A stretch of 54,778 nucleotides of DNA from Prorocentrum cordatum (GCA_963575745.1 CAUYUJ010000211.1:62001-116778), one strand, 5' to 3'. Positions 1,860 through 32,139 are shown, counted from the stretch's first letter. Numbers and translations: made by a program. The notes: generated by a model from the sequence alone, not told the origin.

Positions 1860-3625
1860 ATCGGGTCAACCGTCGGAACAACCATCGGGACAACCGTCGG
1901 GACAACCATCGGGACAATCATCGGGACAACCATCGGGACAACCATCGGGACAGCCATCGGGACAACCATCGGGCCAACCATCGGGACAACCATCGGGACA
2001 CCCATCGGGACAACCTTCGGGACAACCATCGGACAACCATCGGGCAACCATCGGGACAACCATCGGACAACCATCGGGAAAACCATCGGGGCAACCATCG
2101 GAGCAACCATCGAGACAACCATCGGGACAACCATCGGGACAACCATCAAGACAACCATCGGGACAACCATCGGGACAACCATGGGGGCAAGCATCGGGGC
2201 AACCATCGGGGCAACCATCGGGACAACCATCCGGACAACCATCGTGACACCCATCGGGACAACCATCGGGACAACCATCGGGACAACCGTCGGAACAACC
2301 ATCGGAACAACCGTCGGGATAACCATTGGGACAACCATCGGGACAACCGTCGGGACGCCCATCGGGGGAGGCATCGGGGCACCCATCGGGACAACCATGG
2401 GGACAACAATCAGGACAACCATCGGGACAACCATCGGGACAACCATCTGGACAACCGCGGGACAACCGCGGGACAACCACGGCACACGCGCCCGCCCGAG
2501 GGGGGGTGGCGGCCCTTTGGGCTCCATGTGGCTTCCACCAGTGCTGGAACTCGCGCAGCTTCGCGATTGGGGTCGCTTCCCGGTTGGGGCCACTTCCGAT
2601 TTCCTGGTTGGGGTCACTTCCGTTCGCACCCCCCAACTTCCGATCTATCAAATTGTCTATCTGCCACTGAGTATCCACCTATCTTGGACAACCTTCAGGA
2701 CACCCATCAGGAAACCCATCGGGACAACCATCGGGACAATCATCGGGACAACCGTCGGGACAACCATCGGGACAACCATCGGGACAACCATCGGGACAAC
2801 CATCGTGACACCCATCAGGAAACCCATCGGGACAACCATCGGGACAAACATCGGGACAACCGTCGGGACAACCATCGGGACAACCATCGGGACACCCATC
2901 GGGACAACCATCGGGACAACCATCGGGACAACCGTCGGAACAACAATCGGAACAACCGTCGGGATAGCCATTGGGACAACCGTCGGGACAACCGTCGGGA
3001 CAACCATCGGGACAACCATCGGGACAACACCGTCGGAACAACACTATCGGGACAACCATCGGGGCAACCATCGGAACAACCATCGGGACAGCCATCGGGA
3101 CAACCATCGGGCCAACCATCGGGACAACCATCGGGACAACCATCGTGGCAACCATACGGACAACCATCGGGACAACCATCGGACAATCATCGGGACAACC
3201 CGCGGGACAACCATCGGGACAACCATCGAGTCAACATTCGTGACAACCATCGGGACACCCATCGGGACAACTATCAGGACAACCATCGGGACAACCATCG
3301 GGACAACTATCTGGACAACCATCGGGACAACCATCGGGACAACCATCGAGTCAATCATCGGGACAACCATCGGGACAACCATCGGGGCAGCCATCGGGAC
3401 ACCCATCGGGACACCCATCGGGACAGCCATCGGGACAACCATCAGGACAACCATCGGGACAACCACCAGGACACCCATCGGGACACCCATCGGGACAACC
3501 ATCGGGACAACCTTCGCGATACCCATCGGGACAACAATCGGGACAACCATCGGGAAAACCATCGGGACATTCATCGGGACAACCATCGGGACAACCATCA
3601 AGACAACCCGCGGGACAACCATCGG
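1860..3625 (+). repeat. 12-bp minisatellite (GGGACAACCATC)n in two arrays (1860-2480, 2685-3625), each followed by a related GC-rich module
   Basis: Over 100 units visible. The modules at ~2500-2645 and ~3630-3795 share TCCATGTGGC and CGATTTCCTGGTTGGGG. Confidence 0.95.
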
Positions 3626-3789
3626 GGGCGGCGGCCAGCCGGGGGGGGGCGGGGGGGGGCGGGTGATCTTTTTCAGTTCCATGTGGCCTCTACAACTTCA
3701 GGAGCCCGTGCGGCTTCGCCTCGCCCGCACGCACGACACGAACCGAAACCGATTTCCTGGTTGGGGCCATTTACTCCCCCCAACCTCCG

Positions 3790-17099: not shown

Positions 17100-18355
17100 G
17101 TGAAAATGAGCGCCTCGCTCGAGACATCCTCCAAATCTGCTCCGAAAGCGAAGGATGTTGGGCACAGAAACAGGCAAACCGCCTGAGACATCCCCACAAA
17201 ATGGCCGCGAACGAGCCCGTGCAACCACCCCTGGCGGCTCCCCTTAGGGGTGCTGAAATGAGCGCCTCGCTCGAGACATCCTCCAAATCTGCTCCGAAAG
17301 CGAAGGATGTTGGGCACAGAAACAGGCAAACCGCCTGAGACATCCCCACAAAATGGCCGCGAACGAGCCCGTGCAACCACCCCTGGCGGCTCCCCTTAGG
17401 GGTGCTGAAATGAGCGCCTCGCTCGAGACATCCTCCAAATCTGCTCCGAAAGCGAAGGATGTTGGGCACAGAAACAAGCAAACCGCCTGAGACATCCCCA
17501 CAAAATGGCCGCGAACGAGCCCGTGCAACCACCCCTGGCGGCTCCCCTTAGGGGTGCTGAAATGAGCGCCTCGCTCGAGACATCCTCCAAATCTGCTCCG
17601 AAAGCGAAGGATGTTGGCAAGAAACAGGCAAACCGCCTGAGACATCCCCACAAAACGGCCGCGAACGGGACCGTGCAACACCCCTCGGCGGCTCCCCTTA
17701 GGGCTGCTGAAATGAGCGCCTCGCTCGAGACATCCTCCAAATCTGCTCTCCAAGCGAAGGATGTTGGCAAGACAAACAGGCAAACCGCCTGAGACATCCC
17801 CACAAAACGGCCGCGAACGGGACCGTGCAACACCCCTCGGCGGCTCCCCTTAGGGCTGCTGAAATGAGCGCCTCGCTCGAGACATCCTCCAAATCTGCTC
17901 TCCAAGCGAAGGATGTTGGCAAGACAAACAGGCAAACCGCCTGAGACATCCCCACAAAACGGCCGCGAACGGGACCGTGCAACACCCCTCGGCGGCTCCC
18001 CTTAGGGCTGCTGAAATGAGCGCCTCGCTCGAGACATCCTCCAAATCTGCTCTCCAAGCGAAGGATGTTGGCAAGACAAACAGGCAAACCGCCTGAGACA
18101 TCCCCACAAAACGGCCGCGAACGGGACCGTGCAACACCCCTCGGCGGCTCCCCTTAGGGCTGCTGAAATGAGCGCCTCGCTCGAGACATCCTCCAAATCT
18201 GCTCTCCAAGCGAAGGATGTTGGCAAGACAAACAGGCAAACCGCCTGAGACATCCCCACAAAACGGCCGCGAACGGGACCGTGCAACACCCCTCGGCGGC
18301 TCCCCTTAGGGGTGCTGAAACCAGCGCCCCGCCTGAGACATCCTCGCAATCTGCT
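17100..18355 (+). repeat. 152-bp satellite, 8 full copies plus a partial, two sub-types
   Basis: AAATGAGCGCCTCGCTCGAGACATCC recurs at ~17103, 17255, 17407, 17559, 17709, 17861, 18013 and 18165, with a diverged start at 18317. Confidence 0.97.
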
Positions 18356-25689: not shown

Positions 25690-26490
25690 GTAGCTTGCAG
25701 CAGTCGCAAAGATGGAGGGCGGGTCGTGGAGCGTGGGTGCCCTCCGCTGCGTTAGTCGCGGAGCGTATCCCCTGGGAACGCAAGCGCTTCGAGCAGCAGG
25801 CCCAGGGTATCGAGCCCCTCGAGCCCTGCTCCTCCAAGCGCTGACCTGTGAACCTTCTCGATGTTGGCCTTTGCCTCGACATGCTGTTTGTCGAGGTCCT
25901 TGAGACGCTGCTTCTCTGACGCGATTTGCTCCGCAATCTTGGATTGCTGCTTTTCCAGCTCGCCGAACTTGTGGGTGCACTGCCACTTATGCTACTCTTT
26001 GGATCCTCCTCGCACTTGGCGGCCAGTTTCCCGAGCGTGTCTGCGATGTCCTTGCCTGCATCATCTCCTCCGAACTCTTCCTTGAGCTCGATGAAAGCTG
26101 CGTGATTGACTGGCGTCGAGTTGCGCTTGAGGTACGCGAGGGAAACGATCAGGCCACAGTCCTGCACGCACGTTAACACCAATGTCGACGCGGCCTACCA
26201 GACGTCCCTCGCCATCCTCCACGAGGCAGCCGACGAAGCCGAGAATGAAGGTGACGCAGCTATGGAAGGAGTTGCCAGCAGCTCTGGCGGTGGCGGTCTC
26301 AGGCCTGGTGCTGATGGGGCACCCGCTCGCGGCCAAAGCGCTGGCAGCCGAGGAGCGGCACTACCACCCGAGCAAGGGCCCGACTGGGAAGACCCAGACC
26401 TGCTGGACAAACTCACCGCCAAAAGGCCGCCGGATGAAGGACCAGAGGATTGGAAACCACGCCACGTGGAGATCCTTGCAGCAGCGGCCG
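25690..26490. pseudogene. Putative LINE ORF1 remnant with a block reading on the - strand
   Basis: The + strand gives a Cys/Trp-containing start (SWSVGALRCVSRGAYP) and an acidic C-terminal part (NVDAAYQTSLAILHEAADEAENEGDAAMEG...). The - strand of ~25801-26160 gives a coiled-coil-like reading (ELKEEFGGDDAGKDIADTLGKLAAK / KFGELEKQQSKIAEQIASEKQRLKDLDKQHVEAKANIEK). Confidence 0.5.
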
Positions 26491-29400
26491 AGAGGCAGAC
26501 AGTTCAACGGCATCGTGTGCCGCGCGTTCAACGCCGACACCGAATGCAAGTTCCGCGACGCCCTAGACTGGATCGAGGAGAGGGCCATCGTGCCGGTAGA
26601 GGCGGCGCTCGGACAGACCAGGGAGGCATTTTCCGACGAGGCCTTTCGCAGCCAGGCTGGGTCTTCTTGCGTGGCACCCGAGTCAAGGAGAGCGGCCTCG
26701 AGCAGGTCAGGCGATGGCACGACGAGAGGGGCTTCGACTTCGACCTGGTGGCAATCGAAGCCATTGGCGAAGCGGCCTCAGCAGTCTCGGGCGGTGCTGG
26801 GCTTAACGCGAGATGACGCTGGGCCGCAGCCGCGCGCGACGCCGACTACGCCCAGCCGCGCAGGGTGCTCAGCCAGATCTTCATGATTAGTGGCAAGGTG
26901 GGGTTGGGCACCGCCACCGCTGTCTACCTGCGGGATGGGGATGGGGCTCAGCGACAGCAGCTCCGAGATCCTATGGGGCCCCGCCTTCAGGTTGAGGGGG
27001 GGGGCCCAACACCCTTTGACTTCAACGTGGAGCCGCGCCGCCAGGCGCCCTCTCCGAGATGGACTTGGATGCTGCGGGCAAGGAGTTCCAGCACCGCACG
27101 CGCCCGCGTCGGCCAGTCCCCAGCGCGCCTGGGCCCCCGCCATAGCCCAGTCCTCTTCGAGCTCCGCGGGCTCATGGAGGACAAGTCTGCGCGGCAAATC
27201 AAGAAGTTCGCTGGGCCCCCCCTGGACGGGCCGATCGGCTTCCAGCCGGCGCCGCCCAGCGGGGCTGGGGCTGGCCATCTGGCACGGGGCCCCCAGAGCC
27301 AGACGCAGCCGCGTGGCAGTGGGTCCACGGCGCCAAGGAGCTCCTAGTCAAGTACCTCGAAAAGTACGGCGACGAGGGCCCTTCAGTTCAAGGGCAGGGA
27401 GGGGCCTCGGGTTTCAGTTCCAGCAGGGCAGCTTGCAGCAGGCGGCCAGGGGGAGATGGCCGCAGCTACGCCCCCAGATGTCGCATCGGTGGGGGGGCTT
27501 CGCTAGCGTGCTGCGGAGGCTCGCCCTCGTCGAGCGGACGCTGGCGCCGGACAGACGTCGGGCAGGCGGGGGGGGCGGCCGGCAGTGCCGGCGACGAAAA
27601 GCACTGGGGCCTCCTTATCAGGCGGCAGTAGCTGGTGGAGCGCATCACCCTCCGCCCTCGCCAAGGCTACGACGATGCCGGGGCCGGGCCGGGGCCTCCG
27701 TGGCCAAGCCGACCTTCGCCTTCGTCTGCGCGCAGCGCGCGCTCCTCCATGCTCAGAGGGCGGGCGTCGACGCCTCGCGGGCGGAGTGGGCCGACTGGGT
27801 CCAGGGCGCGGTCGGGAATGGGGGGGTGCTGGCGCGCCGCTTCGCCAAGCCATCGTCCGCGGCTGAAGCAATGGCCGCCGCCCCCGCCGACGACAAGGCA
27901 GTGCTCCTGCTCGGCGCCGGCGGGGCAGCGTAGCAGCTGCAAGCGGTTGGGAATGGGGGGTGCTGGCGCGCCGCTTCGCCGAGCCATAGTCCGCGGCTGA
28001 AGCAATGGCCGCCGCCCCCGCCGACGACAAGGCAGTGCTCCTGCTCGACGCCGGCGGGGCAGCGCAGCAGCTGCAAGCGGATTGGCTCTTCCCGTGGCAG
28101 GATGTCAGGATAGCTGGCGGAGGAGGGCGCCGCGTCCTGGCGGACTACCGACCCCCCTTCCCGCTTGGAGGTGGCCGACCCGAGAGACGTCATCAAGCGG
28201 TGAGGCAGGCCTGGGCGGCCTAGGCTGGGGCCAACTCCATCCCGGGCGCCTGCGGCTCCTGGGCGATTCTATATGGAGGCTGCTGTCCATTTTCGAGGGC
28301 CAGGAGGGGCCTGCCGCGCGCTTGCCGCGACTGGCTCACCGCCGCCGGCGAGCGCGGGCCCGCGTGGTTTGCCTGCTCTCAGACGTGCCCCTTGTCGGCG
28401 CGCGCGGGCAGGGGGGAGGCCGGGGTTCTGGGGGGGCGGGGGGGCCCTCCGTGAGAGCTGGTTCCTCGGGGCCTCCGACTTCGCCTTCGAGCGCGCAGGC
28501 AGGGCCCACCAGACAATCACCGCCGTCGCCCGCGAGAAGGGCCTCAGCTCAGGCACGGTGCTGGGGGGCCTCAGGGTGTGCCGCAGGCGCATCGGCCGCG
28601 TCAAGCTCAAGGTCGTTGCGTAGGCCGGAATCTTCGACGTCTAGCTTGTCAGGGCTGGTTGCGCGCTCTACGAGATCTGCGGGATCATCGCGCGCGACCG
28701 GGCCTGCAGCGACGTCCTTGGGGTCGACGGGGCGGTGCTGCCCGGGTACTCGCGCGCCGCCTGATTCGCCGCGCTCCCACCGTGCCGGTCTTCCAAGAGG
28801 GTCGCGGCGAAGCGCGTCGGCGCCGGGCTCGGGGGCGTCGTCGGCGACTTCGCCCGGCAATGCGTCGGGCGCCGGGAGGTGTCGGCCAGCGAGCTGCCAG
28901 GTCGCCGCCGCGATTTGCCTCCCGTGAATACAGGATCAGCGAGTTCCCGTCCACGCGGGCGAGCTCTGCTGCCTCGCGGATGCCCCCGCCGTGGCGACAG
29001 CTCTGGGGGAGTGTTGGCCGGGCGACAGCAACGGCAGGGCCATCGGCGGCAGGGGCCTCCGGCGCGACAGCCGCGATGGGAGGTGGGGGGCAGTCGGCGC
29101 GGTGGCGGCGAGTGCGTGCAAGAGCAGGGCCCGAGCCACGAGACTCCTTCGCCTAAGGGCGGCATGGGGGGCCCCGCGGTCGCGGCCTCCTCGAGGCCCG
29201 CGATCGCTGGCCTGGCCCCAATCGGCGCCCCGTGGCCTCCGAGTCTCAGCGGCTGGGGGCGAGGGCAAGCTGGCAGCGGGGGCCCCGCTGGAACTCCGAT
29301 TCCGTTGGTTCGCCGGGAGCTTCGCGAGGAACCATGCGGTCGTCGGCGCGGGGCTGGTGCTCGAGGAGTGCGCGGCGTGCTTCTGGCGCGGCCCGCCCGG

Positions 29401-29791
29401 CGTTCATCGTCGGCGCCCGCGGCCTGCTCCAGAGGGCCTGGCGCTCGCGGGTCCAGTGCAGGGGCCCAGTGGCAGCTGCGGCGCTCGCCGAGTGCATGCT
29501 GGGCTGGCAGCTGCTGGGCAGCAGGCGCGCCGCCGCCGACGTCGGGCAGCAGTTCGACCTCGCGAGGGCCCCCCCGCGTTGGCGCGGGAAGTGGGCGCGG
29601 GGGCCTAGTCGGCCGAGCGTGTCGGACTGGGCGGCCGCGCGGGCCCAGTGTCCCAGTCGCGAGGGGCCCCCTCATTCGGGGGGCCGGTCAGGAAGCTCGA
29701 CAAGCTGCGACCTCAACGGGGTTGGGGGCGCCACCGACGGTCAGCCCTCCGCTCAGCCACCGCGGGCTCCGCGGTCTGCAAGGCCAAACTC

Positions 29792-29822
<31 letters not shown>

Positions 29823-30570
29823 GTGGGTGGGGGGTGGGGGGCGCCTGGATGCGGGGGCTGCGCCCTCTGCGAGGCGGCTTCGGGTGCCCACTTGCACAGG
29901 TGCTATCGGTATGACGCCGGTGTCGTCTTCAGGAGGGCCGGAAGGTCGGACAAGCTGCGTCGCGGCCTGAGCAGTGGAAACCCTGGCACGACGAGCTGTT
30001 CGCGAGGCGCCTCTCCCCTTCGATCGGGTCGATGACCCCCGGGCGCGACGCGAACTGCGGGGGGTCTTCTGGCGCTGCGTGCCGAGCCGCGGCTTCCTCA
30101 GCGGCCCCGCCTTCGCGGACGGCGGCGCAGTGGGCGCTCGCGGGACAGAGCTGCAACGGGCTGGCTGGTCACCTGCGCGCTGCGACCGCCTCGGACAGTT
30201 GGAGGCGTCGGCCCGCGGCTGGGCGGCGATGCCCATGGCGTCCAGACGGGGCGCGCGCCGGGGAGGGCGGCGCCTGCAACTTGGCGTCCTTCCTCTGCGA
30301 GGGCCCCGTCTACTTCTAGACTGGCTGCAATGGGGCAGTGGGCTGCGCCGTGCGAGGTCAGGGGCGGGCGTGCCGAACATCCTCCAGCGGGGCTCACATG
30401 GGGGGGCCTTTCGCGCGGTGTTCGAAGTAGACTGCGGGCGCGCAGTCACCGCGGTGTTCGGCCGCGCGACGGAGGCAGACATCGATGCGGGCATGTCGAC
30501 GCATCGGCAGATGGCGGGCAACCGCCGCGCCGGCCGCATCGCGAAGCAGGGCGCGCGCCGCGCGCCCCCT
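26490..30570 (+). pseudogene. LINE ORF2 pseudogene (APE ~26490-27170; RT ~28200-29000; RNase H ~30060-30570)
   Basis: Motifs as above. Multiple frameshifts and stops, catalytic Asp codons changed to Gly, an internal 135-bp duplication, and a (GT)n tract at ~29794-29822. Confidence 0.8.
27814..28085 (+). repeat. 135-bp tandem duplication inside the LINE
   Basis: GGGAATGGGGGG...GCAGCTGCAAGCGG starts at 27814 and again at 27949, with a few substitutions. Confidence 0.95.
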
Positions 30571-32139
30571 GATCACCGCCCCGACATCGCCTCCGGACTC
30601 GGCGAGGTTTCCAAGGCAGCGATACTCTGCGCGGGAACGAAGCTGCGCGCGCAGGCGGGCCCACAAGACCAGGAACTATGCGGCAGGCATCCTCCTGGAT
30701 ATGCCTGGCTTCGAAGAGCTCGACGAGGCGTCGGGCAATGCGGCGGGGAGTTCAGCGACCGGGGCGAGACCAGTGGCGGCGGCGGCCGCGGTCGCGGCGG
30801 CCGCGGCCGCGGCGGCGGCGGCGTCTGGCGAGGCCGGCAGTGTCGACGGCGATGCGCCCACTCCACTGCTGGCCGCCAGTGGGCCACCCGGGCGTCGGCA
30901 GCAGGGGCGGCCCATCCCGCCAGCGGCCAGCGGGGAGGATGGCGTCGACTTCAAGAATCATATTGTTGTCCAGCGGCGCATCGTTGCAGGGCCAGGACGT
31001 CCCGCCCCTCAGCCCGACTCGGTTCACGCCTGCCAGAGGCGCTGCAGCTGCGGGCGCAGCTGCGGGCGCAGCTGCGCGCGCAGCGGGCTCGCCGGGCCCG
31101 CTCGCCCATAGAGGTGCGGCGACGGCGGCGGCGCAGCCATCGAGCCCAGGAAGGGTGCGATCAACGCGGGGATGTGGCCAGACGCCCTCGTGGCCGCCAA
31201 GAGGACGCGGAGTCTGGGGGAGGCAGAGACGCCGAGCCAGGACTGGCAGGGCGCTTACCGCAGCCTCGACGACAAGAGGAGGGGGGCCGCCCAGGCTGCC
31301 CGCGGCCGCGACGGCGGGGCACTCGTGGGTGTGGGGGCAGGTGCGGCGGCGGCTTCCCCGGCCGCAAGGGGCCTGCTGGGGCCGCGGCGATGCCGACCCC
31401 TCCGAGGCAGGGCCCGTCGCCCTCGGCAGCGCTCAGCTGGCGCGGCATCTCGCCCGACGGAAATGCAGGGTTCCAAAGGTGTGCGAAGGGCGCCGCCCAG
31501 CGCGCCGCTCCACGGGGCGACCCCGCCGGCGCCGCCGATGAGGAGGTCGCCAGCGCTTGCGAGCACCAATTGGCGTTTTTTTTTAGTTGTTCCTCTTTTT
31601 TTGTTTGTTTTTCCTTCTTCCTTTTTTTTTTTTCTTTGTTTGTTTTTTTTGTTCTTGTTTTTTTTACTTCTTCTTTTTTTCCCCACCTGTCTGTCTGTCG
31701 GTCTCTCTCTCTCTCTGTCTATATATACATATATGTATATATAATAAAGAAACGCACATGTTTTTTCCATTTCCCTTGCCTTTCTCTTTATGTTTCTCTC
31801 TCTTCGCGCTCGGCTCGCGCTCGCCCGCTTCGCCCTCGGCGCATGGCCGGCGGCTCGAGTGTGGCAGGCCTGTCTGTGTGTCGGCCACGGGCTCGGACTG
31901 CCCCCCGTTGGTGTGGGGGCTGTTATATCAAACCGTGAACACTTCACTGTGCGCTGCTCTGTTCTTCTCTTCTTTTCTCTTCCCCACCCTATTATGTGTT
32001 TTTTGGATGGCCTTGCGGCTGGTGCCGCCGAACCTAAATTGGGGACGACGGCGACGACGACGGCGGCGTCGGCGGCGACGACGACGTTCACGTGGGGCAG
32101 AGTCCTCAAGGATGCTTCGTGGGGCCTCGTCGGAACGCG

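What the first reader, a model, noticed from the sequence alone, without database searches (positions are those of the whole stretch)
26490..30570. LINE decay dominated by A>G / T>C transitions (a 'reverse-RIP'-like signature)
Seen, with ancestral states inferred from family consensus: most broken motifs are restored by reverting G to A. Examples are RT xxDD>VVGD (GAC>GGC, 28843), WDQ>WGQ (~28230), DL>GL and IDH>IGR (~28567-28599), and RNase H TDGS>ADGG (ACG>GCG, AGC>GGC, 30115-30126), HAT>RAT (~30463) and ADR>AGR (~30532). Possible Cys>Arg (TGC>CGC) changes occur in ORF1. This is the opposite of the usual C>T decay of methylated repeats. Established: dinoflagellate DNA replaces part of its thymine with 5-hydroxymethyluracil. 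Inference: a T-directed mutational or repair process (e.g. hmU-linked), strong GC-biased conversion, or A-to-I editing of the RNA intermediate is inactivating repeats.
Basis: partly seen in the sequence, partly recalled or inferred. Interest (0 to 1): 0.75.

Follow-up and report, generated by a model that had tools for sequence, protein, structure and literature searches.

The report
GC-ward decay of a dead LINE
A long-dead jumping gene in this dinoflagellate DNA, and eight younger copies of the same family, have changed A:T pairs into G:C pairs about three times as readily as the reverse, the opposite of how dead repeats decay in most organisms, and the pattern points to a process acting on the DNA and not on an RNA copy.

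Summary
Window 25755-31575 is one decayed LINE. Pfam does not detect it, but 14 relatives in the protein library match it, and the closest are labelled Prorocentrum cordatum.

**Spectrum in this copy.** Against the family consensus, at first and second codon positions:
- A>G 149 of 411, T>C 72 of 385
- G>A 80 of 872, C>T 30 of 432
- AT>GC 325 of 796 against GC>AT 195 of 1304

The excess survives alignment filters, anchored columns and a simulation of the pipeline.

- The copy was dead on arrival: its 5' part is inverted and truncated. These changes therefore did not inactivate it.
- Two of the assumed ancestral motifs were wrong, and the "ORF1" is the endonuclease region.

**Family-wide pattern.** Private changes in eight younger copies show the same bias (186 of 6411 against 91 of 9730).
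- A>G and T>C are equal on average (85 of 3471 and 70 of 2940).
- The A>G share differs between copies (p=0.002), and some copies are richer in T>C.
- This argues for a DNA-level process with a strand polarity set at each locus, and against sense-strand RNA editing.

Tyr codons (TpA) are the most mutable. Whether repeats are targeted is open. This scan has raised the same claim in at least seven other windows of this genome.

The parts
25755..26194 (-). Inverted 5' segment of the element, encoding the ORF1-like coiled-coil part of the family protein. This is the structure that twin priming leaves in LINE-1.
   Evidence: 25755-25991 (-) is the best of 971 six-frame pieces against an HMM of the family N-terminus (positions 170-224, E 1.9e-5). 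26194-25994 (-) matches positions 102-148 weakly (E 1.8). P0001 residues 47-82 match 25958-25851 at 67% identity.
26217..26660 (+). Start of the direct part: the linker between the ORF1-like part and the endonuclease. It resumes within a few residues of where the inverted part ends.
   Evidence: P0021 residues 253-420 align to 26217-26810 (E 1e-14). The inverted piece ends at about residue 248-250 of the same protein (alignment).
26661..27257 (+). Decayed apurinic-type endonuclease domain.
   Evidence: P0002 residues 41-247 align here. Pfam PF03372 matches P0002 residues 7-171 at E 2.9e-6.
27808..28085 (+). Tandem duplication of 134 bp inside the element. The two copies are 95% alike.
   Evidence: There are 5 substitutions between the copies. 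Only 2 can be polarised from the family, and both are A>G.
28204..29000 (+). Decayed reverse-transcriptase domain. The family motif VVDD reads VVGD here (GGC at 28843-28845).
   Evidence: P0003 residues 146-290 align to 28462-28896. Pfam RVT_1 matches P0003 residues 108-317 at E 8.4e-9. Site check.
30061..30657 (+). Decayed RNase H domain. Two of the four conserved acidic positions are now Gly: 30323 in the T-D-C motif and 30532 in the L-A-D motif.
   Evidence: P0010 residues 60-251 align here. A model of P0010 (mean pLDDT 69) matches retroviral, human and E. coli RNase H (3v1o E 4.5e-6, TM 0.67 on the target). Sites.
30658..31575 (+). C-terminal Cys-rich region and 3' end of the element. GC falls from 0.75-0.78 to 0.30 at about 31575, and no poly(A) follows.
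   Evidence: P0002 aligns up to 31258. The profile alignment runs to about 31570. GC profile, sequence.

Best explanation
**What it is.** Window 25755-31575 is one old copy of an endonuclease-RT-RNase H LINE. The closest relatives found are all labelled Prorocentrum cordatum. It was inserted with its 5' part inverted and truncated, so it was never functional at this locus.

**What happened to it (inferred).** The copy then decayed under a substitution process that acts on the DNA and turns A:T pairs into G:C pairs, mainly by transitions. Per site this runs about three times as often as the reverse change.

**It is a family property.** Eight younger copies show the same bias. Averaged over the family, A>G and T>C are equal. 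Each copy nevertheless leans to one strand, which suggests that the local setting fixes which strand is hit more, for example the direction of replication or of transcription through the locus.

**In this window** the + strand, which is the element's sense strand, takes the A>G changes. Hence Asp>Gly, His>Arg, Thr>Ala and Tyr>Cys dominate the broken motifs.

**Shown versus inferred.**
- Shown: the element, its anatomy, the direction and size of the bias, the family-wide symmetry and the differences between copies.
- Inferred: that the cause is a mutational bias at A:T pairs acting after integration.
- Not shown: that it is aimed at repeats.
For: **Size and robustness of the bias in this copy.**
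- AT>GC 325/796 against GC>AT 195/1304. With states backed by an outgroup or sister copy: 134/369 against 98/756.
- It persists in anchored columns: 58/137 against 29/199.
- At columns conserved in core and outgroups: 10/53 against 10/119.
- Sites at codon positions 1 and 2 rose from 0.62 to 0.68 GC. That moves away from the 0.598 of non-repeat DNA outside the element.

**Controls.**
- The sister copy P0001 has as many private changes (115 against 110) but the opposite balance: AT>GC 23 against 53 in the window, GC>AT 52 against 34, p=1.4e-4.
- Satellite arrays in the same window give 175/2293 against 205/3748, which implies an equilibrium GC of 0.58.

**Family-wide, and on the DNA.**
- Private changes of the eight young copies: 186/6411 against 91/9730, p=1.7e-20.
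- A>G 85/3471 and T>C 70/2940 are equal.
- The A>G:T>C share differs between copies, p=0.002.

**Mostly transitions.**
- Window, transitions to transversions: AT>GC 221:104 against GC>AT 109:80.
- Young copies: 155:31 against 64:27.
- Satellites: 111:64 against 135:70.

**Spread along the copy.** No clusters and no strand-coordinated runs: 98 runs observed against 98.2 expected.

**Dead on arrival and long dead.** Searches show the inverted 5' part. The aligned path carries 10 in-frame stops and 25 frame changes.

**Strand polarity.** Non-repeat flanking DNA has A<T and G>C on the + strand, the same direction as the copy's polarity.
Against: **Limits of the data.**
- All relatives are proteins. 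Ancestral bases are therefore known only at first and second codon positions, where past selection also acted.
- The 'young copies' are translations of gene models.
- P0001 may contain wrongly modelled stretches.

**The strand asymmetry is not unique to this copy.**
- The window gives 68/184 against 28/194.
- Smaller asymmetries appear in P0001 (26/114 against 18/141) and in the intact distant relative P0003 (29/179 against 17/206). Part of the asymmetry may therefore come from the genetic code or from the active lineage.

**Fixation bias is not excluded.**
- AT>GC transversions also exceed GC>AT transversions per site: 104/796 against 80/1304.
- GC>AT changes look low compared with P0001. Both are what a fixation bias predicts.

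**The inverted 5' segment shows no GC-ward bias** (29/103 against 37/117). Its alignment is poor, at 39 of 130 residues identical.

**The satellite control has its own dynamics,** because arrays evolve in concert.

**Other caveats.**
- Third positions are still 0.83 GC, so most of the element's high GC is inherited from its codon usage.
- Many tests were run, and the weaker p-values (0.01-0.07) should be read accordingly.
Confidence: 0.5

Rival explanations
1. GC-biased gene conversion or another fixation bias. Mutation is ordinary, but G:C alleles are fixed more often. This could happen at this locus or through ectopic conversion among LINE copies.
For: - Both strands are affected on family average.
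- AT>GC transversions are about twice GC>AT transversions per site in the window (104/796 against 80/1304) and in the young copies (31/6411 against 27/9730).
- GC>AT changes are fewer than in the sister copy P0001 (34 against 52).
- Biased gene conversion has been discussed for dinoflagellate codon usage (PMC7299967, passages read).
Against: - The excess lies mainly in transitions. The odds ratio of transitions to transversions, AT>GC against GC>AT, is 1.56 in the window and 2.11 in the young copies, against 0.90 in the satellites.
- The bias stops at the element. Flanks and non-repeat DNA stay near 0.60 GC, and nearby arrays imply an equilibrium of 0.58.
- The differences between copies in strand polarity (p=0.002) are not expected from conversion.
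- Conversion between copies should pull a copy towards the family, not to new residues at catalytic sites.
Confidence: 0.2
2. A directed genome-defence mutator. An adenine deaminase, or a process linked to thymine modification, would be aimed at retroelement DNA, like the TpA hypermutation of integrated viral DNA in Bigelowiella natans.
For: - The bias is stronger in LINE copies than in satellites of the same window (per-site ratio about 3 against 1.4).
- It differs between copies of one family.
- It is transition-rich.
- Tyr codons, the only TpA inside a codon, are the most labile. In young copies 17 of 132 are lost, 7 to Cys and 6 to His. A>G after T is 7/132 against 42/2282 in other contexts, p=0.016. 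In the window 2 of 18 Tyr are kept.
- Precedent: B. natans preprint 10.64898/2026.01.13.699255 (abstract, section 7 and passages read).
- 5hmU is enriched on repeats in Amphidinium carterae (10.1101/2023.11.30.569493, abstract only).
Against: - The TpA preference is about threefold, not exclusive. In B. natans all GC-biased mutations fall on TpA.
- Only 221 of 735 changes in the window are A>G or T>C, and other classes are common.
- There are no clusters.
- No comparison with neutral non-repeat DNA was possible, so targeting is untested.
- T>C is not raised at TpG, the motif reported for 5hmU peaks (8 of 64).
Confidence: 0.2
3. A-to-I type editing of the LINE RNA before reverse transcription, which would leave A>G on the sense strand only.
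For: - In this copy A>G exceeds T>C 2 to 2.6-fold.
- The excess holds at sites where the change is radical (48/158 against 40/264).
- At conserved columns A>G is 7/25 against T>C 0/28.
- The pipeline alone does not produce this. Of 418 symmetric simulations, 0 reached the observed ratio of 2.58.
- A>G is lowest after G (38/140).
Against: - T>C is itself raised well above C>T (72/385 against 30/432).
- Family copies P0019 (7:14) and P0020 (8:15) are rich in T>C, and the family mean is symmetric.
- There are no hyper-edited clusters.
- There is no preference for a 3' G.
- The inverted 5' piece, which would come from the same RNA, shows no A>G excess (11/70, weak alignment).
Confidence: 0.05
4. 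No process at all. Gly, Arg and Ala codons are simply what a 73% GC sequence holds wherever a motif is lost or the alignment is wrong.
For: - Misaligned columns would mimic an AT>GC excess equal to the present composition.
- G>C (90/872) and C>G (71/432) are oddly frequent, as noise would make them.
Against: - The bias is as strong or stronger in anchored columns, in one-step codons (144/499 against 73/949) and in high-reliability subsets.
- A>G exceeds A>C 149:62, where composition predicts about 1.2:1.
- Young copies that differ from their consensus at only 2-3% of sites show the same bias.
Confidence: 0.05

Closest known systems
TpA-directed A:T>G:C hypermutation of integrated viral DNA in Bigelowiella natans (preprint 10.64898/2026.01.13.699255; abstract, section 7 and passages read)
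   Same: - Direction: A>G and T>C, against the usual AT-ward bias.
- It acts on both DNA strands.
- It hits some integrated or foreign sequences more than others.
- TpA is the most mutable context here too.
   Different: - There the changes are almost exclusively transitions (210 of 211 and 20 of 20), all at TpA, and were measured as new mutations.
- Here the transitions are 221 of 735 changes and the TpA preference is about threefold.
- The evidence here is old substitutions, and targeting is not shown.
GC-biased gene conversion and GC-ward compositional drift of dead repeats
   Same: A net AT>GC excess on both strands that includes transversions, and a gradual, unclustered accumulation.
   Different: - The excess is mainly in transitions.
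- It is confined to the element.
- It moves the copy further from the composition of the surrounding DNA.
- Strand polarity differs between copies.
Repeat-induced point mutation (RIP) of fungi (features recalled, not taken from a call)
   Same: A directional transition bias seen in repeated elements.
   Different: The direction is opposite. C>T is 30/432 and G>A is 80/872, the rarest transition classes here. No link to duplication was tested.
ADAR editing of retroelement RNA followed by retrotransposition in mammals (recalled)
   Same: An A>G excess on the sense strand of this one copy.
   Different: The family mean is symmetric, copies rich in T>C exist, there are no clusters, and there is no 3' G preference.
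Transcription-associated strand asymmetry of mammals, with A>G above T>C on the non-transcribed strand (recalled)
   Same: A strand polarity that varies from copy to copy, with flanking DNA skewed the same way (A<T and G>C on the + strand).
   Different: The overall bias there is not GC-ward by threefold. The direction of transcription here is unknown.
LINE-1 5' inversion by twin priming (recalled)
   Same: An inverted 5' segment that ends where the direct segment begins, with upstream sequence missing.
   Different: No target-site duplication or poly(A) tail was found. This is a different LINE clade.

Membership tests
Non-LTR (LINE) retrotransposon with apurinic-type endonuclease | Endonuclease domain of the exo-endo-phosphatase type upstream of the RT | tested here: met
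   Met by homology only. 26661-27257 aligns to P0002 residues 41-247, and P0002 carries PF03372 (E 2.9e-6). Pfam finds nothing on the window itself.
Non-LTR (LINE) retrotransposon with apurinic-type endonuclease | Reverse-transcriptase domain with the catalytic xxDD motif | tested here: met
   28462-28896 aligns to P0003 residues 146-290 inside its RVT_1 match (E 8.4e-9). The family motif is VVDD, and the window has VVGD.
Non-LTR (LINE) retrotransposon with apurinic-type endonuclease | RNase H domain after the RT (present in some clades) | tested here: met
   A model of the relative P0010 matches solved type-1 RNase H folds (E 4.5e-6, 48 matches at E<=0.001). A sequence profile found no PDB match.
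Non-LTR (LINE) retrotransposon with apurinic-type endonuclease | Poly(A) or simple-repeat tail, and a target-site duplication | tested here: inconclusive
   No poly(A) follows the 3' end, only a T-rich tract at 31575-31680. A target-site duplication was not searched for systematically.
RIP-like C>T repeat mutation | An excess of C>T and G>A transitions in repeats | tested here: not met
   C>T 30/432 and G>A 80/872, against A>G 149/411 and T>C 72/385. CpG observed/expected is 0.99.
Imprint of A-to-I RNA editing | A>G on the sense strand only, in every edited copy | tested here: not met
   The family mean is A>G 85/3471 against T>C 70/2940. P0019 (7:14) and P0020 (8:15) are rich in T>C.
Imprint of A-to-I RNA editing | Clusters of edited sites | tested here: not met
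   Runs of changed and unchanged A sites: 196 against 190.7 expected. Strand-label runs: 98 against 98.2 expected.
Bigelowiella-type TpA hypermutation | Mutations restricted to TpA dinucleotides | tested here: not met
   There is a preference only. Young copies give 7/132 at TpA against 42/2282 elsewhere. The window gives 10/18 against 84/264, p=0.067.
Bigelowiella-type TpA hypermutation | Restricted to integrated foreign or mobile DNA | tested here: inconclusive
   The per-site AT>GC to GC>AT ratio is about 3 in LINE copies against 1.4 in satellites. No neutral single-copy DNA with known ancestry was available.
GC-biased gene conversion | Equal favouring of AT>GC transitions and transversions | tested here: not met
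   The odds ratio of transitions to transversions, AT>GC against GC>AT, is 1.56 (p=0.022) in the window and 2.11 (p=0.018) in the young copies, against 0.90 in the satellites.
GC-biased gene conversion | AT>GC alleles segregating at higher frequency, and a link to recombination rate | not testable with these tools
   No population data and no whole genome are held.

The most novel reading that the evidence does not exclude
Dinoflagellates may carry a DNA-level mutator that converts A:T to G:C in integrated retroelements. It would prefer TpA and hit one strand at a time. That would make it a relative of the hypermutation just described in the chlorarachniophyte Bigelowiella, and so a 'reverse RIP' genome defence shared by distant algal lineages. 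It would also help explain why the repeat-filled dinoflagellate genome is GC-rich.
Probability: 0.2. Interest if true: 0.85.

Novelty: new variant of a known kind. Interest (0 to 1): 0.55.

Why it matters
In most eukaryotes mutation is AT-biased, and dead repeats drift towards A and T. Here one LINE family drifts the other way, by about 3 to 1 per site, towards an implied equilibrium (0.73-0.79 GC) well above the 0.60 of the surrounding DNA.

If this is a mutational property of dinoflagellate DNA, or of its retroelements, it bears on three questions:
- how these very large, repeat-rich genomes got their composition;
- how their modified bases behave;
- whether algae use base editing against mobile DNA.

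My four literature searches touching on this turned up no report of it for dinoflagellates. The nearest was the 2026 Bigelowiella preprint.

There is also a practical lesson. In this genome, Asp>Gly, His>Arg and Tyr>Cys at catalytic sites mark decay, and standard domain models miss such copies altogether.

Tried and rejected
**Searches that found nothing.**
- Pfam on the window's ORFs and read-through frames: nothing.
- Word-indexed protein search with the read-through translation: none scored. Low-complexity words swamped it.
- Whole genome: not held.
- Sequencing runs: none was listed, so no reads could be laid.
- Metagenome scan for DNA of relatives: 523 pattern matches, none confirmed. Third codon positions and untranslated parts therefore could not be polarised.
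- Second copy in the window: none.
- Pfam on 125 other ORFs in the window: nothing.
- PDB sequence profile for the RNase H region: no match. The fold search succeeded instead.

**Neighbour context from present-day bases.** ApC and GpT looked favoured. I dropped this after classing sites by ancestral residue gave 50/135 against 44/147, p=0.21. Thr>Ala and Val>Ala, both mild changes, account for most of it.

**A first amino-acid-only count undercounted T>C.** Arg and Leu outcomes are ambiguous at the first codon position. I recounted with parsimony, though Trp>Arg and Phe>Leu still drop out.

**The inverted 5' segment as a natural test of strand or timing.** Its alignment is too weak to use: 39 of 130 residues identical.

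**The idea that the copy is simply drifting to the genome's composition.** Rejected for this copy, because positions 1 and 2 began above 0.60 GC and rose further.

Full report
**What is there**

- The stretch 27001-31000 is 72-74% GC, while its flanks are 57-64%.
- Pfam sees nothing in it. There was no RT, RNase H or endonuclease family in 19 of 19 + strand ORFs at E<=1, nor in 10 of 10 frames read through stops at E<=10.
- An exhaustive phmmer search of the read-through translation of 27991-30600 found 14 relatives at E<=0.001 among 1.84 billion representatives, the best at 8.5e-27.
- Among the relatives, P0002 carries the endonuclease family PF03372 and P0003 carries RVT_1.
- P0002 residues 7-1336 align collinearly to 26530-31258 on the + strand, across several frames.
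- Eleven of the 12 proteins returned with P0002 as query (P0002 included) are labelled Prorocentrum cordatum.
- A model of the relative P0010 (mean pLDDT 69) matches solved type-1 RNase H folds, with the best hit at E 4.5e-6.
- A frameshift-aware alignment of the window to the family profile runs from about 26610 to 31300. It carries 10 in-frame stops and 25 frame changes.
- The window holds no second copy.

- The ORF1-like coiled-coil part of the family protein lies on the minus strand.
  - 25755-25991 (-) is the best of 971 six-frame pieces of the window against an HMM of the family N-terminus (positions 170-224, E 1.9e-5).
  - 26194-25994 (-) follows in the right order, but weakly (E 1.8).
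- The + strand resumes at residue 253 of P0021 at 26217. That is within a few residues of where the inverted piece ends.
- This is the layout twin priming leaves in LINE-1 (recalled). The first roughly 100 residues and any 5' leader are missing.
- The copy was therefore most likely dead on arrival.

**The cited examples**

- Confirmed against the family:
  - 28843 GGC for Asp, in the motif VVDD;
  - 28229 and 28567 GGC for Asp;
  - 30124 GGC for Ser;
  - 30463 CGC for His;
  - 30532 GGC for Asp.
- Further cases: 30266 and 30323 GGC for Asp, and 30269 GGC for Tyr.
- Corrected:
  - 'IDH' is I-S-H in this family;
  - the Thr of 'TDGS' is a variable column, where P0002 and P0001 have Ala.
- Some derived states recur in other members: VVGD in P0022, WGQ in P0001 and one core member, and Arg for His in P0011.
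- Cys>Arg occurs in 2 of 22 consensus Cys columns.

**The spectrum**

I compared the window's bases with the bases the family consensus residue fixes at codon positions 1 and 2.

| Change | Count |
|---|---|
| A>G | 149/411 |
| T>C | 72/385 |
| G>A | 80/872 |
| C>T | 30/432 |
| A>C | 62/411 |
| T>G | 42/385 |
| AT>GC (all) | 325/796 |
| GC>AT (all) | 195/1304 |

- The implied equilibrium GC is 0.73.
- With ancestral states backed by an outgroup or sister copy, AT>GC is 134/369 against GC>AT 98/756.
- A>G plus T>C make up 221 of 735 changes. They are the largest class, but not a majority.
- Asp>Gly occurs in 18 of 71 Asp columns, while Gly>Asp occurs in 1 of 125 Gly columns.

**Is it an artefact?**

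- Misaligned columns would mimic the bias, so I restricted the count to columns whose two neighbours are identical to the consensus. That gives A>G 33/72, T>C 12/65, G>A 7/134, C>T 6/65, and AT>GC 58/137 against GC>AT 29/199.
- Codons that differ at no more than one of the first two positions give 144/499 against 73/949.
- Columns conserved in both core and outgroups give 10/53 against 10/119, with A>G 7/25 and T>C 0/28.
- I ran 418 simulated copies, decayed with strand-symmetric rates, through the same pipeline.
  - The A>G:T>C rate ratio averaged 1.14, with a maximum of 2.11. The observed ratio is 2.58.
  - Five of the 418 reached the observed difference at the conserved columns.

**Composition**

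- In the aligned frame the copy is 0.717, 0.635 and 0.828 GC at codon positions 1, 2 and 3. The family residues fix 0.718 and 0.505 at positions 1 and 2.
- Most of the element's high GC is therefore inherited codon usage. What has risen is position 2.
- On identical sites, positions 1 and 2 went from 0.62 to 0.68 GC. That moves away from the 0.598 of non-repeat DNA outside the element.
- CpG observed/expected is 0.99.

**Controls in the same data**

- The sister copy P0001 shares derived residues with the window. It has as many private changes (115 against 110) but the opposite balance: AT>GC 23 against 53, GC>AT 52 against 34, p=1.4e-4. A recount by parsimony gives 23 against 41 and 40 against 27, p=0.009.
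- Ten satellite arrays of the window, polarised by majority rule, give AT>GC 175/2293 against GC>AT 205/3748, an equilibrium of 0.58. An eleventh array, with too few copies to polarise, gave no counts.
- The distant intact relative P0003 shows no bias (85/385 against 176/740).

**The family as a whole**

This result moved my reading most. I took private differences of eight closely related copies (P0002 and P0015-P0021) from the majority of the others, in well-matched stretches.

- AT>GC is 186/6411 against GC>AT 91/9730, a ratio of 3.1 (p=1.7e-20).
- A>G is 85/3471 and T>C is 70/2940, which are equal (p=0.87).
- The share of A>G differs between copies (chi-square p=0.002).
  - P0016 is 15:3 and P0018 is 12:2.
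  - P0020 is 8:15 and P0019 is 7:14.
- Transitions dominate AT>GC more than GC>AT: 155:31 against 64:27, odds ratio 2.11. The window gives 221:104 against 109:80, odds ratio 1.56. The satellites give 0.90.

**What this says about mechanism**

- Editing of the sense RNA cannot make copies rich in T>C, or a symmetric family mean. In this copy the changes are also evenly spread (98 strand-label runs against 98.2 expected).
- Pure biased conversion does not predict three things: a transition-specific excess, confinement to the element, or strand polarity that differs between copies.
- A mutational bias at A:T pairs acting on the DNA after integration fits best. Its polarity would be set by the locus.
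- Here the + strand takes the A>G changes. Non-repeat flanking DNA has A 0.188 below T 0.214, and G 0.308 above C 0.290, the same direction.
- The strand asymmetry of this copy persists at sites where the change is radical (48/158 against 40/264). Smaller asymmetries also occur in P0001 and P0003, so I do not treat it as special to this copy.

**Context**

- Prompted by the Bigelowiella preprint (all hypermutations at TpA; section 7 read), I tested Tyr codons, the only TpA inside a codon.
- In the young copies Tyr is the most often lost residue: 17/132, of which 7 go to Cys and 6 to His. A>G after T is 7/132 against 42/2282 after other bases, p=0.016.
- In the window only 2 of 18 Tyr columns survive. 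A>G there is 10/18 against 84/264 (p=0.067), and T>C is 6/18 against 11/99 (p=0.024).
- This is a preference, not a rule.
- T>C is not raised at TpG (8 of 64), the motif reported for 5hmU peaks in Amphidinium (abstract only).

**Limits**

- No DNA of any relative could be obtained. Third positions, untranslated parts and neutral non-mobile DNA are therefore untested.
- Targeting of repeats remains open.
- The relatives are translations of gene models.
- Many tests were run.

**Earlier notes of this scan**

Searches show that the same claim was raised in at least seven other windows of this genome. Most follow-ups read it as ordinary GC-ward decay, and one read it as sense-strand A>G hypermutation. 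The family-wide count here offers a way to reconcile them: the bias is general and symmetric on average, but single copies are polarised.

Noticed in passing
25755-26194 (-) joined to 26217 onward (+): The 5' part of the LINE is inverted and abuts the direct part within a few residues of the family protein. This is a twin-priming-like insertion structure in a dinoflagellate LINE.
   Followed up: partly
27808-28085: A 134-bp tandem duplication inside the dead element, with copies 95% alike. Of 5 substitutions between the copies, the 2 that can be polarised are both A>G (27981 and 27914).
   Followed up: partly
whole window: 41% of the window is tandem repeat by TRF, or 46% with low-complexity DNA added. 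It includes long trinucleotide arrays (TGA, GGA, GAT), a 12-mer array of about 146 units at 1860-3626, and a 152-bp satellite at 17104-18355 that is 97% alike. None of 125 ORFs outside the LINE has a Pfam match.
   Followed up: partly
about 13000-54778, + strand: G exceeds C almost throughout (the cumulative GC skew rises from -1.1 to +4.4), and T mostly exceeds A. Part of this comes from the satellites, but non-repeat DNA shows it too (A 0.188, T 0.214, G 0.308, C 0.290).
   Followed up: partly
P0001, P0004, P0022 and P0023 (relatives): Several Prorocentrum cordatum 'unnamed protein products' are gene models built on decayed LINE copies. P0001 joins an ORF1-like piece to RT and RNase H pieces, and P0022 carries the same VVGD as the window.
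   Followed up: no
young family copies (P0002, P0015-P0021): Tyr is the residue most often lost in private changes (17/132), ahead of Thr, Met and Val. Cys, Gly, Arg and Pro are the most stable. Val>Ala (30) against Ala>Val (13), and Leu>Pro (21), show the same direction.
   Followed up: partly
29794-29822, 30775-30823, 31044-31084 and 31575-31680: Microsatellites have grown inside the dead element: (GT)14, a GGC run and a 12-mer repeated 3.4 times. A T-rich tract of about 100 bases follows its 3' end where a poly(A) might be expected.
   Followed up: no
this LINE family: The RT motif of this family is VVDD, not the WADN reported by earlier notes for other LINEs of this genome. Its RNase H model aligns to canonical RNase H folds over 156-180 columns, so it is a different LINE family.
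   Followed up: partly
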